From: Staphylococcus phage LY01
DNA length: 64,000 nucleotides
Strand: one strand, 5' to 3'
Sequence record: OR836606.1
The notes beneath the pieces are model-generated. The model saw nothing but the letters and a program-made list of their open reading frames with translations, did no database searches and was not told where the DNA came from. This document shows, piece after piece, positions 27,014-30,107 of this stretch (position 1 is its first letter; each line of letters begins with the position of its first letter). The translations under genes were made by a program, and so were the position numbers.

Positions 27014-27324
27014 CTATTTACTAGCTTTTATACTCACATTTTTTGATTTAGGATTATTTAATAAATAAACCGCAATCTGCGAGTCTTTATTAAGTGAATA
27101 TGTTCTATTAAACAAACCATCATTATATGATATTAATTGATTGACTGGATCTTGTACTTTTAACATATCATACTGCTCTTCTGAAAATAAAGCTATAATA
27201 TTTAAAGTATCACCATCATAATCGGCACCCATTCCAGCTAAGATATTGTTACTAATACCTACTACAGCAGAATCAATATCATTAGTGATATCTTTAATTT
27301 TTAATATTTGAACTGAAGATTCTG
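27014..27324 (-). CDS. RNAP beta-prime N-terminal subunit, exon 2 (catalytic DxDGD loop)
   Basis: Frame is open upstream of the track ATG. Encodes ...ILAGMGADYDGDTLNIIAL, matching bacterial beta-prime ...VCAAFNADFDGDQMAVHVP. It continues ...NDGLFNRTYSLNKDSQIAVYLL, like [21 protein letters not shown]. Exon start (about 27324) estimated from the intron 3' end. Confidence 0.7.
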
Positions 27325-27478
27325 AGATTGAAGGGTTCTTTTCATTAGACTATATCATTATCTTTTACTAAGATATATACTATTTAGTCGTTGAACAACT
27401 TATATTAAGTTGATGCTGATTAATTTTAATAAATCTTTTCAGCAATTAAGTATTATTAATTCATTAATATATTACTAT
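27325..27478 (-). ncRNA. group I intron (mini-intron family) splitting the RNAP beta-prime gene
   Basis: On the minus strand: P TTAATTGCTGAAA (27440-27449 rc), Q AATCAGCATC (27412-27422 rc), R GTTCAACGACTAAA (27383-27397 rc), S GATATAGTCT (27347-27356 rc). Exon 1 frame stops inside the intron. A splice after ...GCGLI-U gives an in-frame beta-prime. Confidence 0.7.
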
Positions 27479-28485
27479 ATTAAGCCGCAACCCATTTTAC
27501 GGTTCAAAATTACTCTCATACCGCCTTCAGTTTTATTAACTAATTCTTTCATGTACTTATATACTTTAGGATTAAAGTTATCCAAAGCTTTACCTAATAT
27601 TTCTTCCGCTTTAGGTAATGGAATATTTTCTGTTACATACATTAAATTAGCCAATAATGGTTTATATATTTCTAAGAAGATTGTATAATTCATTCTAATT
27701 TCATTTAATTTTAAGTCAGGTGCTGGAACAATTACTGAACGAGCTGAATATCCTACTCGACTACCCATAATTAATTTACGAATAGTTCCCATTTTACCTT
27801 TAATATTCTCATTAATAATGCGCTCATAGATATTCATATTATCATCTTGAATTTTATTAAGTAAATTTAATTTCTGCAATTCAACTGAATCATCTGTATA
27901 ATGCTCATCTAATTCTTTAAGACTATTACTATGAGCAATTAATAAATTAAATTCTTTATTGATCTCTGAATGTCTAAATGTCTTAGTTGCCTTATTAACT
28001 GTGGCTGGTCTTAATTTAGGACTAAATACGGTTACATAATTTTGAAATAATGTTCCATTTAAATACCACTGAACAACCCTATTGTAATCTTTAGTTGAAC
28101 GTTTATCACGTTTAACTTCTTCTTTAAGAATTTTTAAAAAGTTCTTTCTAAATTCAACTAAACCAATATATGAATTATGATCATCTTCCGGTTCAATTAC
28201 ATTGCCATTCTCATCGATAGGTTTTTCAGAACTAATAATTTCAGCAAATCTTTTTCTACCTATTAGTTTTTTAATTCTATCATATCCTAAAGGCGTAATA
28301 ATATAGTTATTGCCTAAATAAATTATAGCTTCATTTGTAATATTATCTATATCTGAATCAGGTCCAAAGATTTTCTCACTGAAGATACCGTCTTCAGTGA
28401 AATCACCTTTCTTATCAATTGATTCATGATTAGTCACTACTGGTAATTTTGATAAATCTTTATTCTTAAGTAAAAATCTAGCCAT
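27475..28485 (-). CDS. RNAP beta-prime N-terminal subunit, exon 1
   Basis: DGIFSEKIFGP matches DGLFCARIFGP. MGSRVGYSARSVIVPAPDLKLNEIRMNYTIFLEIYKPLL matches LGKRVDYSGRSVI(T/V)VGPxLxLHQCGLPKKMALELFKPF. The last ~9 codons are probably intron read-through. Confidence 0.8.
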   Translation of the reverse strand: MARFLLKNKDLSKLPVVTNHESIDKKGDFTEDGIFSEKIFGPDSDIDNITNEAIIYLGNNYIITPLGYDRIKKLIGRKRFAEIISSEKPIDENGNVIEPEDDHNSYIGLVEFRKNFLKILKEEVKRDKRSTKDYNRVVQWYLNGTLFQNYVTVFSPKLRPATVNKATKTFRHSEINKEFNLLIAHSNSLKELDEHYTDDSVELQKLNLLNKIQDDNMNIYERIINENIKGKMGTIRKLIMGSRVGYSARSVIVPAPDLKLNEIRMNYTIFLEIYKPLLANLMYVTENIPLPKAEEILGKALDNFNPKVYKYMKELVNKTEGGMRVILNRKMGCGLI

Positions 28486-30107
28486 TACTCATCATCCTCT
28501 TCTACAATTTCTTCAATATCTAATATTACTTCATTATCTTCAGATTCTTTTTCTAATTTATCTAAATTGTCTGTATCGATATTTTCTCTGATGTTAGGTT
28601 TATTTTCAAAATAGAATGAACCATTTTCACCAGGATCTTTAACCTCACAGAATGGTGTCAATGTACGTGTAATACCTGGGTTATTTGAAGATGTTGCTAT
28701 TAAATCAATTCTACCAAAATAAGTATTATTTATATTAATAGTTCTAATAGATGGTTTACTAGTATCAACGGCAGTTTGCGGTCCTGCTTTAGTCATTTTA
28801 AGTATTCTAGTAAATAAGTCAATTGTATTAACTGCATTGGAATATCTGATTCCTTCAGATGTTCCTATAGTTTTTAATAAGAAGTCACGAGGAACACCTG
28901 AAAATAATCCTTTAAGATTTTTAATCGTACGCTTCTTATCTGTAAAATTAATCATACGATAAGACGTGTCAGAGTTCTTTCTATTTAATGGATAAGTTAA
29001 GTATTCTAATACTCTTAAACGTTTGTTAGCTAAATCTGTATTATCTAATAAATTAAGATTGTCAAAGTTTTTAAACATGTATTTAACTACATGATAAGTT
29101 GATTCTTTATCTTCCGGTTCTAATCTAGAAATATTTTTAGTACGATTATCTAATATACGATCAAATGATAAAATCATAGAATTAGCTTTTTCAATTTTAG
29201 TATCAACATTAGTAGAACCGCTAAATACGGATCCTAAATTCTTAAGCCAGAATTCTTTGTCATATACTTTATCTAATCCCACTCTCATACCTTTAAATAA
29301 ATCTTTAATACATAAAACCATAGAAGTTTTATATCTATCTTCTTGATCTAACCATTTCTTATCAACTTGAATAGTTATTTTATTATTAATTCTAAAATAA
29401 TAGTGGTTATCATCTTTTTCATCATTGGTATCTATTAACTTACAATATTTTTTAATGTCTAAGAATTCAAATGTTTCATTCAGACCCATTTTAGCAATAA
29501 AGAATAAAAAGGCTGGAACAGGTTTATTTTTATTAAACACTTCTAAGTATAATGTTCTACCTCTTAACTTCTTAGGCATTTTTTTATCATCATCAATGAG
29601 TTCATCCTTTTTAGAACCATTTACTGATAATGGTTGTAATAAGTTTTTCATTACTACTGTACTCGCTTTAGGTTTATAGAATTCAGTATCAGCTAATTGT
29701 AATATAGGGAAAAATTTATTATCGTTAATATAATAGTACTGACCTTCTATAAGTTCAGGAAAATCTAATTTATGCGTATATAATTCTTTTTCTCCTTCAG
29801 CCGACTCGAACTCTACAGTAATTTGAACTTCTAATAGTTTTGATTCTTCTACATTGATTTTTCTAAAATCTCTTGCTTTAAACTGTTTTTCTGTCATTTG
29901 ATTATACTCATATACTTCACTTGGAGGAACAACTTTACAATCAATAAATTTTACACCTTTAATAAATTCTACTGATTTGTAAATATCAGATATGATATCT
30001 TCTAGATTTTCATTTTGTCTAAAGTATATTGCATCTTCATTAAACGGTTCTTTTTTACTTACTTCGTCTTGTATATTCTTCGTAATTTTTCTTAAATAAC
30101 TGCCCAA
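28485..30107 (-). CDS. RNAP beta subunit, N-terminal half
   Basis: DLANKRLRVLEYL matches LSNRRIRSVGEM. NNTYFGRIDLIATSSNNPGITRTL matches [25 protein letters not shown]. Stop overlaps the next ATG (TAATG). Confidence 0.75.
   Translation of the reverse strand: MGSYLRKITKNIQDEVSKKEPFNEDAIYFRQNENLEDIISDIYKSVEFIKGVKFIDCKVVPPSEVYEYNQMTEKQFKARDFRKINVEESKLLEVQITVEFESAEGEKELYTHKLDFPELIEGQYYYINDNKFFPILQLADTEFYKPKASTVVMKNLLQPLSVNGSKKDELIDDDKKMPKKLRGRTLYLEVFNKNKPVPAFLFFIAKMGLNETFEFLDIKKYCKLIDTNDEKDDNHYYFRINNKITIQVDKKWLDQEDRYKTSMVLCIKDLFKGMRVGLDKVYDKEFWLKNLGSVFSGSTNVDTKIEKANSMILSFDRILDNRTKNISRLEPEDKESTYHVVKYMFKNFDNLNLLDNTDLANKRLRVLEYLTYPLNRKNSDTSYRMINFTDKKRTIKNLKGLFSGVPRDFLLKTIGTSEGIRYSNAVNTIDLFTRILKMTKAGPQTAVDTSKPSIRTININNTYFGRIDLIATSSNNPGITRTLTPFCEVKDPGENGSFYFENKPNIRENIDTDNLDKLEKESEDNEVILDIEEIVEEDDE

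What the first reader, a model, noticed from the sequence alone, without database searches (positions are those of the whole stretch)
27014..30107. Split multisubunit RNA polymerase genes (beta N-half, beta-prime N part, and a separate beta C-half at 39943-44221)
Conserved motifs place 28485-30107 as beta regions A-C, and 27475-28485 plus 27014-27324 as beta-prime up to just past the DxDGD loop. A gene about 10 kb upstream on the same strand, 44221-39943, is beta regions D-I.

This fragmented organisation is that of phiKZ/AR9-type jumbo phages that transcribe independently of the host enzyme. No beta-prime C-terminal half is in this window. The DYDGD variant of the catalytic motif is notable.
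Basis: partly seen in the sequence, partly recalled or inferred. Interest (0 to 1): 0.55.

Follow-up and report, generated by a model that had tools for sequence, protein, structure and literature searches.

The report
Intron-riddled jumbo-phage RNA polymerase genes
These are the split RNA polymerase genes of an AR9-like Staphylococcus jumbo phage, a known arrangement, but here they are broken by unusually many very small self-splicing-type introns, some only 9 to 44 bases apart.

Summary
The window is about 93% identical to the Staphylococcus jumbo phages S6, PALS_2 and Madawaska, which are AR9/PBS1-like.

- **Non-virion RNAP genes.** 28485..30107(-), 27014..28485(-) and 39943..44221(-) encode the beta-N, beta'-N and beta-C subunits. 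Each matches a chain of the solved AR9 enzyme 7S00 (E 4.5e-73, 1e-69 and 2.5e-141).
- **DYDGD.** This motif is shared with AR9 and is not special.
- **Missed gene.** 50326..52680(-) is a fourth RNAP gene, the virion RNAP beta C-part.
- **No beta'-C gene.** None was found in the window or in the syntenic part of Madawaska.

- beta'-N carries one 161-nt intron.
- beta-C carries five: one of 1438 nt with a homing endonuclease, then four ORF-less ones of 153-185 nt in tandem, separated by exons of 9, 44 and 19 nt.
- vRNAP beta-C carries two, of 146 and 166 nt.

Removing them restores reading frames exactly colinear with intronless relatives. They have a covariation-supported group I core but score below Rfam's threshold.

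Intron-disrupted RNAP genes in this clade were already published (Korn et al.), so this is a new member of a known kind. Splicing is inferred, not shown.

The parts
28485..30107 (-). nvRNAP beta subunit, N-terminal part (540 aa, TTG start), uninterrupted. Its stop overlaps the start of the next gene (TAATG).
   Evidence: PDB 7S00_c E 4.5e-73. Same length as PALS2_088 and Madawaska_001. Junction sequence.
27499..28485 (-). nvRNAP beta' N-terminal part, exon 1 (codons 1-329, ends ...VILNR).
   Evidence: Alignment to intronless PALS_2; splice coordinates; 7S00_d about 1e-69.
27338..27498 (-). 161-nt ORF-less group I-type intron 'bpN', between NR and NPS.
   Evidence: Absent from PALS_2. Rfam RF00028 full-length match at 32.4 bits, E 1.3e-6, below the gathering score of 50. 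R1 hit at 124.9 bits. U.G-closed P1 and terminal G.
27014..27337 (-). nvRNAP beta' N-terminal part, exon 2 (NPSIS...DYDGD...stop).
   Evidence: The spliced ORF is 1311 nt, the same as PALS2_089. tblastn of the spliced 436-aa protein gives 98.2% identity to PALS_2.
43111..44221 (-). nvRNAP beta C-terminal part, exon 1 (ends ...GSKITTR + first base of the Tyr codon).
41673..43110 (-). 1438-nt group I-type intron 'A' inside the R|YGGKG motif. It carries the endonuclease ORF 41825..42937 (370 aa), which runs into the ribozyme core.
   Evidence: Absent from PALS_2. P1 GAGAU/GUCUC and terminal G. Core strings UUAAUUGCUGG, GUUCAACGACUA and GAUAUAGUCU. ORF: phrog_559 HNH endonuclease E 1.1e-48; Pfam DUF559 17.2 bits, below cut-off. 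The 3' part matches introns in 249 phage records.
41146..41672 (-). nvRNAP beta-C exon 2 (...YGGKGV...HLKLKHE).
40962..41145 (-). 184-nt intron 'i1' at KHE|PSG. Its 5' exon ends in G, not U.
   Evidence: Rfam RF00028 46.2 bits, E 1.7e-10, below the gathering score. No U.G-closed P1 is possible. No deposited phage has an intron at this site.
40953..40961 (-). 9-nt micro-exon CCATCAGGT (Pro-Ser-Gly).
   Evidence: Sequence; colinearity with PALS_2.
40776..40952 (-). 177-nt intron 'i2' at PSG|K. Machias has an intron at the same site.
   Evidence: R1 141.3 bits; Rfam 16.2 bits; Machias L007:1437-1610 has the same 5' flank CATCAGGT.
40732..40775 (-). 44-nt micro-exon (KISAKSLDFNNYSG + 2 bases of Ile). 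Differs from PALS_2 mostly by synonymous changes.
40579..40731 (-). 153-nt intron 'i3', inside the Ile codon of SGI|P.
   Evidence: R1 144.2 bits; Rfam 26.5 bits; P1 UGGGAU/GUCUCA.
40560..40578 (-). 19-nt micro-exon (last base of Ile + PTRTPD).
40375..40559 (-). 185-nt intron 'i4' at TPD|S. Machias has an intron at the same site.
   Evidence: R1 139.5 bits; Rfam 34.4 bits; P1 CCGGAU/GUCCGG; Machias L007:1181-1368.
39943..40374 (-). nvRNAP beta-C exon 6 (SKKYLSRINNNPLRIGEME...stop).
   Evidence: The spliced gene is 2142 nt / 713 aa, 97.2% identical and gap-free against PALS2_067.
50326..52680 (-). Exons 52680..51021, 50874..50857 (18 nt) and 50690..50326. Introns v1 51020..50875 (146 nt) and v2 50856..50691 (166 nt).
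   Evidence: phrog_3233 'RNA polymerase beta subunit' E 1.4e-10. Relatives annotate it as viral RNAP beta. The spliced 680 aa are colinear with intronless UFV_DC4, 92% identical. The C-terminus aligns to E. coli beta 1224-1315, E 0.003, and all 35 hits are RNAP beta. R1 hits 107.8 and 137.9 bits.

Best explanation
The window comes from an AR9/PBS1-like Staphylococcus jumbo phage, closest to S6, PALS_2 and Madawaska.

**The genes.** Three genes on the minus strand encode three of the four core polypeptides of its non-virion RNA polymerase. beta-N and beta'-N are adjacent and their stop and start codons overlap. beta-C lies about 10 kb upstream. By analogy with AR9 (established for AR9, inferred here), these assemble with a beta'-C polypeptide and a fifth, gp226-like specificity subunit encoded elsewhere. 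That enzyme lacks alpha and omega subunits and transcribes late genes from uracil-containing promoters. A fourth gene in the window encodes the beta C-part of the second, virion-packaged polymerase.

**The introns.** Three of these four genes cannot be translated as they stand, because eight insertions interrupt them.
- One is a conventional 1.4-kb group I intron carrying a homing endonuclease.
- Seven are ORF-less, 146-185 nt elements with a shared, nearly invariant group I catalytic core.

The inferred mechanism is that each insertion folds in the primary transcript and removes itself by the two guanosine-initiated transesterifications of group I splicing, joining the exons, micro-exons included, into a continuous message.

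**Shown and inferred.** Shown: the homology, the exact colinearity after removal, the core fold with covariation, and the splice-site U.G and terminal G in seven of eight introns. Inferred: that splicing actually happens, that it is autocatalytic, and in what order the tandem introns leave.
For: **Identity of the phage**
- 93-94% DNA identity to S6, PALS_2, UFV_DC4, Madawaska and MarsHill.
- The gene order UvsX, nvRNAP beta-C, ligase is shared with AR9 and Madawaska.

**Identity of the subunits**
- Matches to AR9 nvRNAP chains 7S00_c, _d and _C at E 4.5e-73, about 1e-69 and 2.5e-141.
- phiKZ nvRNAP (7OGP_C) and bacterial beta and beta' chains follow at weaker E-values.
- The vRNAP beta-C C-terminus aligns to E. 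coli beta 1224-1315.

**Introns**
- Every insertion is absent from at least one close relative: PALS_2 for beta'-N and beta-C, UFV_DC4 for vRNAP beta-C.
- Removal gives ORFs of 1311, 2142 and 2043 nt. The beta'-N and beta-C ORFs match their intronless orthologues in length with no gaps, at 98.2% and 97.2% protein identity. The vRNAP beta-C product (680 aa) aligns end to end with the 677-aa orthologue at 92%, with three gap positions.
- The micro-exons differ from PALS_2 mainly by synonymous changes.
- All five small introns of the two nvRNAP genes give full-length matches to Rfam Intron_gpI, with E down to 1.7e-10 in local searches.
- A model built from the seven small introns finds 20 copies in the window and in relatives.
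- On that 20-sequence alignment, 87% of cells pair, against 31-45% when partners are slid. 16 of 30 pairs show compensatory changes. 0 of 500 shuffles reach the observed covariation score. P4, P5, P6 and P8 covary, and P7 is invariant.
- P3 covaries as well.
- P1 closed by a U.G pair, with the guide G at intron position +8 to +12, and a terminal G are present in 7 of 8 introns.
- v1 folds well below shuffled controls (z -4.1) into P1, P4-P6, P7 and P9.

**Precedent**
- Korn et al. report intron-disrupted vRNAP and nvRNAP genes in this clade.
- GenBank annotates the Machias nvRNAP beta-C gene as 6 exons, MarsHill as 4 and Madawaska as 3.
Against: - No transcript data exist for this sequence.
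- The seven small introns are not found by Rfam at its curated threshold. The five that were rescanned locally score 16-46 bits against 50.
- i1 has no U at the 5' splice site if the protein is to stay colinear.
- v1 has no room for a P8 hairpin or a P2, and bpN has no P9 hairpin. Some may therefore not be autonomous ribozymes.
- A 9-nt exon has to serve as the 3' exon of one intron and the P1 substrate of the next, which has not been shown to work.
- The covariation alignment was fitted to the model, so pair counts lean towards the structure.
- The beta'-C gene and the fifth subunit were not seen, so a complete enzyme is assumed from relatives.
Confidence: 0.88

Rival explanations
1. The insertions are non-splicing repeat elements (MITE-like), and the interrupted RNAP genes are pseudogenes in a defective or decaying genome.
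For: - The small elements are a multi-copy, near-identical repeat family.
- They fall below Rfam's curated score.
- One of them lacks the canonical 5' splice-site U.
Against: - Exon and micro-exon sequences stay in frame and 97-98% identical in protein to intact orthologues, with mostly synonymous differences. Dead genes would not show this.
- Three essential polymerase genes would be dead at once.
- Cultured, plaque-forming relatives carry the same kind of elements in the same genes: Madawaska has both v1 and v2, and Machias has i2- and i4-site introns.
- The elements have a covarying group I core and the right splice-site nucleotides.
Confidence: 0.04
2. The fragments are translated separately, with no splicing. 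The polymerase would then be split into even more polypeptides than in AR9, for example 27475..28485 and 27014..27232 as two proteins.
For: - Jumbo-phage RNAP subunits are already split into separate polypeptides (PMC7598289).
- Some fragments happen to start with an ATG inside the intron (ORFs 27014..27232 and 39943..40392).
Against: - The conserved segments NPSISESSVQILK...ILAG (27233..27337) and the 9-, 44- and 19-nt micro-exons lie outside any ORF with a start codon. They are still conserved in frame.
- The breaks fall inside invariant catalytic motifs (NR|NPS, R|YGGKG, and the beta segment before GEME), not at domain boundaries.
- Close relatives encode the same proteins uninterrupted.
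Confidence: 0.03
3. The genes are cellular or organellar split rpoB/rpoC genes (plastid, cyanobacterial or archaeal), or belong to the virion polymerase rather than the non-virion one.
For: - Very low G+C, about 24%.
- A beta' split at the cyanobacterial rpoC1/rpoC2 position.
- Introns within polymerase genes.
Against: - 93% DNA identity to Staphylococcus jumbo phages over the whole region.
- The neighbours are phage genes: UvsX, primase, tail fibre and homing endonucleases.
- The best structural homologues are the AR9 non-virion enzyme chains, by 50-120 orders of magnitude over any cellular chain.
- No tRNA or rRNA genes.
Confidence: 0.01

Closest known systems
[quoted passage not shown]
   Same: - Three of the four core polypeptides are clearly homologous over their full length.
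- Same DYDGD catalytic motif.
- Same beta' split shortly after it.
- Same neighbourhood: UvsX, beta-C, NAD ligase.
   Different: - Only 34-39% protein identity to the Bacillus phages (AR9, PBS1, BpSp) in beta'-N.
- AR9 beta-C has no intron.
- AR9 beta'-N has one intron with an HNH endonuclease near the catalytic motif. Here a 161-nt ORF-less intron sits about 39 codons upstream, at NR|NPS.
- beta'-C and the gp226 homologue were not in the window.
RNAP genes of Staphylococcus jumbo phages S6, PALS_2, UFV_DC4, Madawaska, MarsHill, Machias and PB50
   Same: - 76-94% DNA identity and the same gene order.
- Intron-disrupted RNAP genes are reported for MarsHill, Madawaska and Machias.
- Machias shares the i2 and i4 insertion sites.
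- Madawaska matches the v1 and v2 region in one unbroken alignment.
   Different: - The closest relatives (S6, PALS_2, UFV_DC4) have no intron in nvRNAP beta-C or beta'-N.
- No deposited phage matches the i1 site.
- Every deposited beta'-N gene is either uninterrupted or broken some 40 codons downstream of the NR|NPS site.
- Nearly identical cores sit at other sites with other guide sequences in Madawaska and MarsHill.
Phage group I introns (T4 td/nrdB/sunY, Twort, SPO1; Rfam RF00028)
   Same: - P1 with a U.G pair, P3-P8 core, P7 strings GACUA/UAGUC and a terminal G.
- Insertion into the most conserved codons of essential nucleic-acid enzymes.
- A homing endonuclease ORF in one of them.
- The 3' part of intron A matches introns of Staphylococcus myophages and of phages infecting Yersinia, Vibrio, Acinetobacter and Escherichia.
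   Different: - Seven of eight are 146-185 nt with minimal or missing P2, P8 or P9, and all five that were rescanned locally fall below the Rfam gathering score. From memory, the Azoarcus tRNA-Ile intron of about 205 nt is usually quoted as the smallest self-splicing one; I could not verify this in the paper library.
- They form tandem arrays with 9-44 nt exons. Micro-exons between group I introns are otherwise described in fungal mitochondrial genes (PMC12308204, listed but not read).

Membership tests
AR9/phiKZ-type non-virion multisubunit RNAP | Sequence homology of the polypeptides to the characterised nvRNAP subunits | tested here: met
   7S00_c E 4.5e-73, 7S00_d/7S01_d about 1e-69, 7S00_C E 2.5e-141; phiKZ 7OGP_C E 5e-21.
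AR9/phiKZ-type non-virion multisubunit RNAP | beta and beta' each encoded as separate N- and C-terminal polypeptides, with beta' split just after the DPBB/DxDGD domain | tested here: met
   beta-N, beta-C and beta'-N are separate genes. beta'-N ends 64 residues after DYDGD. The split is described in PMC7598289. The beta'-C gene itself is not in the window.
AR9/phiKZ-type non-virion multisubunit RNAP | Catalytic DxDGD motif in beta' and catalytic lysine motifs in beta | tested here: met
   DYDGD at residues 368-372 of spliced beta'-N. RYGGKG and LRIGEME are present in spliced beta-C. AR9 has the same DYDGD.
AR9/phiKZ-type non-virion multisubunit RNAP | Fifth, gp226/gp68-like promoter-specificity subunit; no alpha or omega subunits | not testable with these tools
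   No candidate was found among the window ORFs scanned. The rest of the genome is not available.
AR9/phiKZ-type non-virion multisubunit RNAP | Recognition of uracil-containing late promoters on the template strand | not testable with these tools
   This is a biochemical property of AR9 (PMC7598289). Uracil DNA is presumed for the Staphylococcus relatives.
Group I intron (Rfam RF00028) | Score at or above the curated Rfam gathering threshold (50 bits) | tested here: not met
   No hit at gathering on the whole window. Local scores are 46.2, 34.4, 32.4, 26.5 and 16.2 bits for i1, i4, bpN, i3 and i2. v1 and v2 were not rescanned locally. Intron A was not detected, because the ORF splits the core.
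Group I intron (Rfam RF00028) | Conserved core helices P3-P8, including the P3/P7 pseudoknot, supported by covariation | tested here: met
   20 sequences: 87% of cells paired, 16 of 30 pairs with compensatory change, 0/500 shuffles reach the covariation score, slid controls 31-45%. P3 covaries. P7 is invariant, which is uninformative. v1 lacks a P8 hairpin.
Group I intron (Rfam RF00028) | 5' splice site after a U that forms a U.G pair in P1; intron ends in G | tested here: met
   Seven of eight introns have a U.G-closed P1 of 4-8 bp with the guide G at +8 to +12. All eight end in G. The exception is i1, whose 5' exon ends in G.
Group I intron (Rfam RF00028) | Precise excision restores the host reading frame | tested here: met
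   In silico removal gives ORFs colinear with intronless orthologues: gap-free and equal in length for beta'-N and beta-C, and 680 against 677 aa with three gap positions for vRNAP beta-C.
Group I intron (Rfam RF00028) | Guanosine-dependent self-splicing | not testable with these tools
   Needs in vitro transcription and splicing, or RNA-seq.
Intron-encoded homing endonuclease (ORF 41825..42937) | Recognisable endonuclease domain inside an intron, with relatives in other phage introns | tested here: inconclusive
   phrog_559 'HNH endonuclease' E 1.1e-48 and phrog_9084 'homing endonuclease' E 3e-12. Pfam DUF559 (Vsr-like) scores only 17.2 bits against a 20.6 cut-off. The architecture (repeated Cys-rich modules plus a Vsr-like end) resembles the HEG group described in PMC12350094, but this was not compared directly.

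The most novel reading that the evidence does not exclude
The 146-185 nt ORF-less elements are a family of the smallest natural group I ribozymes.

- **Spread.** They would spread within and between jumbo-phage genomes by retargeting a 4-8 nt guide sequence. Nearly identical cores sit at different sites with different guides, and many sites end in GGAU or GGU, which fits reverse splicing.
- **Where they accumulate.** They pile up as tandem arrays in one conserved segment of both beta paralogues.
- **Dependence on help.** Some members (v1 without P8 or P2, bpN without P9, i1 without the splice-site U) may depend on a neighbouring intron or a phage protein to splice.
- **Distribution.** Related compact copies and tandem arrays occur in many uncultivated 200-400 kb phage contigs.
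Probability: 0.3. Interest if true: 0.6.

Novelty: new member of a known kind. Interest (0 to 1): 0.35.

Why it matters
For the polymerase itself this adds little. It is another AR9-like enzyme set, useful mainly for correct annotation, because automatic gene callers report these genes as fragments or as hypothetical proteins.

The intron content is the more useful part.
- It gives exact coordinates for eight introns in three essential genes, including 9-, 18-, 19- and 44-nt exons that no gene finder would call.
- It shows that Rfam's threshold misses this compact intron family.
- If the small elements self-splice, they are attractive minimal group I ribozymes.
- They would also be a natural system for asking how adjacent ribozymes fold and splice when they share a 9-nt exon, and how introns colonise new sites in phage genomes.

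Tried and rejected
- **Pfam on single ORF fragments.** Only sub-threshold Rpb1_2 (20.8 bits) and Rpb2_6 (14.8 bits) hits, and nothing for beta-N. It was not useful and was replaced by PDB sequence searches.
- **Rfam at gathering on the whole window.** Nothing.
- **Rfam E-value mode on 4.4 kb of the beta-C gene.** Nothing relevant. Only short local searches exposed the introns.
- **PDB search of exon 1 of the vRNAP gene and of the 645-aa ORF 37310..39247.** No hits.
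- **IMG/VR scan with a long three-block intron pattern.** Zero hits. A shorter P7-P7' pattern gave at least 120.
- **Literature searches for 'smallest/minimal group I intron' and for phage micro-exons.** They gave nothing that settles whether these sizes are a record. The AR9 genome paper and the journal version of Korn et al. are not held.
- **Readings considered and rejected.** Inteins were ruled out because there are stop codons in the insertions and a group I core. Translational bypassing, plastid or cyanobacterial origin, and assignment of the three genes to the virion enzyme were also rejected.
- **tRNAs.** None in the window.
- **Rfam on the gyrA insertion.** No hit.

Full report
**What the window is.** The region of the finding and its surroundings are 93-94% identical in DNA to the Staphylococcus jumbo phages S6, PALS_2, UFV_DC4, Madawaska and MarsHill. 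They are 76-87% identical to SA1, PB50, AH12 and Machias, with weak matches to Listeria phage LPJP1 and to Bacillus phages AR9 and PBS1. G+C is about 24%, and nearly all genes from 10 kb onward are on the minus strand. These phages are described as AR9-like, presumably uracil-DNA phages, with a virion and a non-virion multisubunit RNA polymerase (bioRxiv 10.1101/2020.12.14.422802; review PMC7598289).

**Check of the observation.**
- ORF 28485..30107(-), 540 aa, matches only one PDB sequence, chain c of the AR9 non-virion RNAP (7S00, beta N-part, E 4.5e-73).
- The beta' gene is interrupted. Alignment with the intronless PALS_2 gene shows a 161-nt insertion. With exons 28485..27499 and 27337..27014, the joined ORF is 1311 nt, exactly the PALS_2 length. 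tblastn of its 436-aa product gives 98.2% identity to PALS_2. It matches AR9 nvRNAP beta'-N (7S01_d 1.1e-69, 7S00_d 1.4e-69) and then bacterial beta' and cyanobacterial gamma chains.
- DYDGD is at residues 368-372. The AR9 chain has the same DYDGD in the alignment, so this is the family's normal motif. The review gives it as DxDGD with a bulky x.
- The beta-N stop and the beta'-N start overlap (GAGTAATGG).
- The stretch 39943..44221(-) is the nvRNAP beta C-part. Once joined it is 2142 nt / 713 aa, gap-free and 97.2% identical to PALS2_067. It matches 7S00_C at E 2.5e-141, phiKZ nvRNAP 7OGP_C at 5e-21, and bacterial beta chains.
- Pfam on the raw fragments gave only sub-threshold hits.

**What else is there.**
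- Its first exon hits PHROG 3233, 'RNA polymerase beta subunit'.
- Relatives annotate it as viral RNAP beta.
- After removing two insertions, the 680-aa product is colinear with the intronless UFV_DC4 protein at 92% identity.
- Its last 150 residues align to E. coli beta 1224-1315, and all 35 PDB hits are RNAP beta chains.
- It is thus the beta C-part of the virion enzyme, which in the Bacillus relatives carries an extra N-terminal domain (PMC7598289).

No beta'-C gene was found. The large unassigned ORFs have no Pfam, PHROG or PDB match. The 75 kb of Madawaska that is syntenic with the window has only these four RNAP genes annotated.

**The introns.** Comparison with intronless relatives defines eight insertions:
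- **beta'-N:** bpN, 27498..27338, 161 nt, between NR and NPS.
- **beta-C:** intron A, 43110..41673, 1438 nt, inside R|YGGKG, with the endonuclease ORF 41825..42937.
- **beta-C, four in tandem:** i1 41145..40962 (184 nt), i2 40952..40776 (177 nt), i3 40731..40579 (153 nt) and i4 40559..40375 (185 nt). They are separated by exons of 9 nt (CCATCAGGT), 44 nt and 19 nt.
- **vRNAP beta-C:** v1 51020..50875 (146 nt) and v2 50856..50691 (166 nt), separated by an 18-nt exon.

The four tandem introns and the two vRNAP introns all fall in the same conserved beta segment, corresponding to E. coli beta about 1226-1275 just before GEME.

**Are they group I introns?**
- All share nearly invariant strings: UUAAUUGCUGG, AAUCAGCAUC, GUUCAACGACUAAAUA and GAUAUAGUCU. 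The 15-mer occurs 8 times exactly on the minus strand, against 0.6 expected.
- Rfam's Intron_gpI model aligns full length to bpN (32.4 bits), i1 (46.2), i4 (34.4), i3 (26.5) and i2 (16.2). Local E-values go down to 1.7e-10, but every score is under the gathering score of 50. Nothing is reported at gathering on the whole window.
- RNAalifold on the seven small introns recovers P4, P5, P6, P7 and P8.
- A covariance model built from them (R1) finds 7 copies in the window and 13 in the RNAP genes of Madawaska, MarsHill, Machias and PB50. i1 was probably masked by overlap with i2.
- On that 20-sequence alignment, 87% of cells pair, against 31-45% for slid partners. 16 of 30 pairs show compensatory changes. 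No shuffle reaches the observed covariation. This alignment is fitted to the model, which favours the structure.
- P3, checked independently, covaries: GAAUAU/AUAUUC, UUUCU/AGAAA, AUACU/AGUAU, UCAUAU/AUAUGA and AAUCUUU/AAAGAUU.
- Seven of the eight introns have a P1 closed by U.G, with the guide G at +8 to +12. All end in G.
- v1 folds with z = -4.1 into P1, P4-P6, P7 and P9.
- Intron A has the same core, with its ORF starting after P4' and running into J6/7-P7. Its 3' part matches introns in 249 phage records.

**Oddities.**
- i1 cannot have a U at -1 if the protein stays colinear. The alternative junction adds one Asn.
- v1 has no P2 and no room for P8.
- bpN has no P9 hairpin.

**How it most likely works.** By homology with AR9, the three nvRNAP polypeptides join a beta'-C polypeptide and a specificity subunit encoded elsewhere to form the late-gene polymerase. 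The vRNAP beta-C goes into the virion enzyme. This is inferred from PMC7598289 and not tested here. Before translation, the primary transcripts must lose eight introns by group I self-splicing. The evidence for this is indirect but strong: exact colinearity, coding conservation of the micro-exons, a covarying core, and canonical splice-site nucleotides. Plaque-forming relatives also carry such introns in the same genes: Madawaska has v1 and v2, and Machias has the i2 and i4 sites and is annotated with 6 exons.

**Comparison with what is known.** Intron-disrupted RNAP genes in this clade, with variable exon numbers between phages, are published and annotated in GenBank. AR9 beta'-N has an HNH-containing intron near the catalytic motif, and PB50 has an endonuclease intron there too.

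New here relative to the deposited genomes:
- the NR|NPS intron in beta'-N;
- the i1 site;
- five introns in a beta-C gene whose closest relatives have none;
- the 9-nt exon.

Nearly identical cores occur at other sites with other guide sequences: i4 against Madawaska, and i3 against MarsHill. This suggests movement to new sites.

The P7-to-P7' motif occurs in at least 120 IMG/VR loci, many from 200-400 kb contigs. R1 finds 53 compact copies in 80 of them, including tandem arrays.

I could not establish from the paper library whether 146-185 nt is a size record. From memory, the 205-nt Azoarcus intron is usually called the smallest.

**Verdict.** This is a new member of a known kind, and interest is modest for the polymerase. 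The compact tandem introns are the part worth an experiment.

Noticed in passing
window 52796..58362 (-): The gyrA gene carries an intein (ORF 55600..58362; Pfam Intein_splicing and LAGLIDADG_3). It is also cut after ...KLSDG by an insertion of about 1.98 kb, whereas Madawaska GyrA reads KLSDGDIPLNIF without a break. The insertion has a group I-like core at its 5' end (about 55500..55160) followed by a TnpB/IS605-OrfB-like ORF (53824..55044, phrog_506 E 1e-81). That is the layout of an IStron. Rfam finds nothing there, and the colinear junction again lacks a U at -1.
   Followed up: partly
window 62341..63483 (-): A second TnpB/IS605-OrfB-like ORF (380 aa), similar in its C-terminal motifs to the one inside gyrA. 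Its context was not examined.
   Followed up: no
window 59900..60575 (-): Model R1 hits a compact group I core at 60021..60194 (99 bits), immediately 3' of a 120-aa HNH endonuclease ORF (60168..60530). It appears to lie between two genes rather than inside one. A G+C-richer stretch (59900..60010) follows. Madawaska has a free-standing HNH gene at this position.
   Followed up: no
window 50326..52680 (-) and Madawaska MW349129.1 235946..238292: GenBank labels the Madawaska homologue 'viral RNA polymerase beta subunit, N-terminal'. Its spliced C-terminus aligns to the extreme C-terminal conserved region of bacterial beta (E. coli 1224-1315), so it is the C-part.
   Followed up: yes
L132 (Machias MW349128.1 1701..3370): The Machias nvRNAP beta'-N is annotated only to residue 374, but tblastn finds the remaining residues 362 nt further on. 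An intron near the DYDGD motif seems to be unannotated. AH12 shows the same pattern.
   Followed up: partly
L029 3602..4249, L057 7350..7999, L073 6233..6600 (IMG/VR contigs of 290-360 kb and 52 kb): Uncultivated phage contigs, most of them jumbo-sized, carry tandem arrays of two or three compact R1-type introns. The interrupted genes were not identified, although an ORF next to the L029 array may be polymerase-like.
   Followed up: partly
window 40375..40559 vs L004:976-1164; window 40579..40731 vs L008:1663-1846: Intron cores that are almost identical from P3 to P7' sit at different codons in different phages, with different 5' guide segments and different 3' tails. Many insertion sites end in GGAU, GGU or AGU.
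   Followed up: partly
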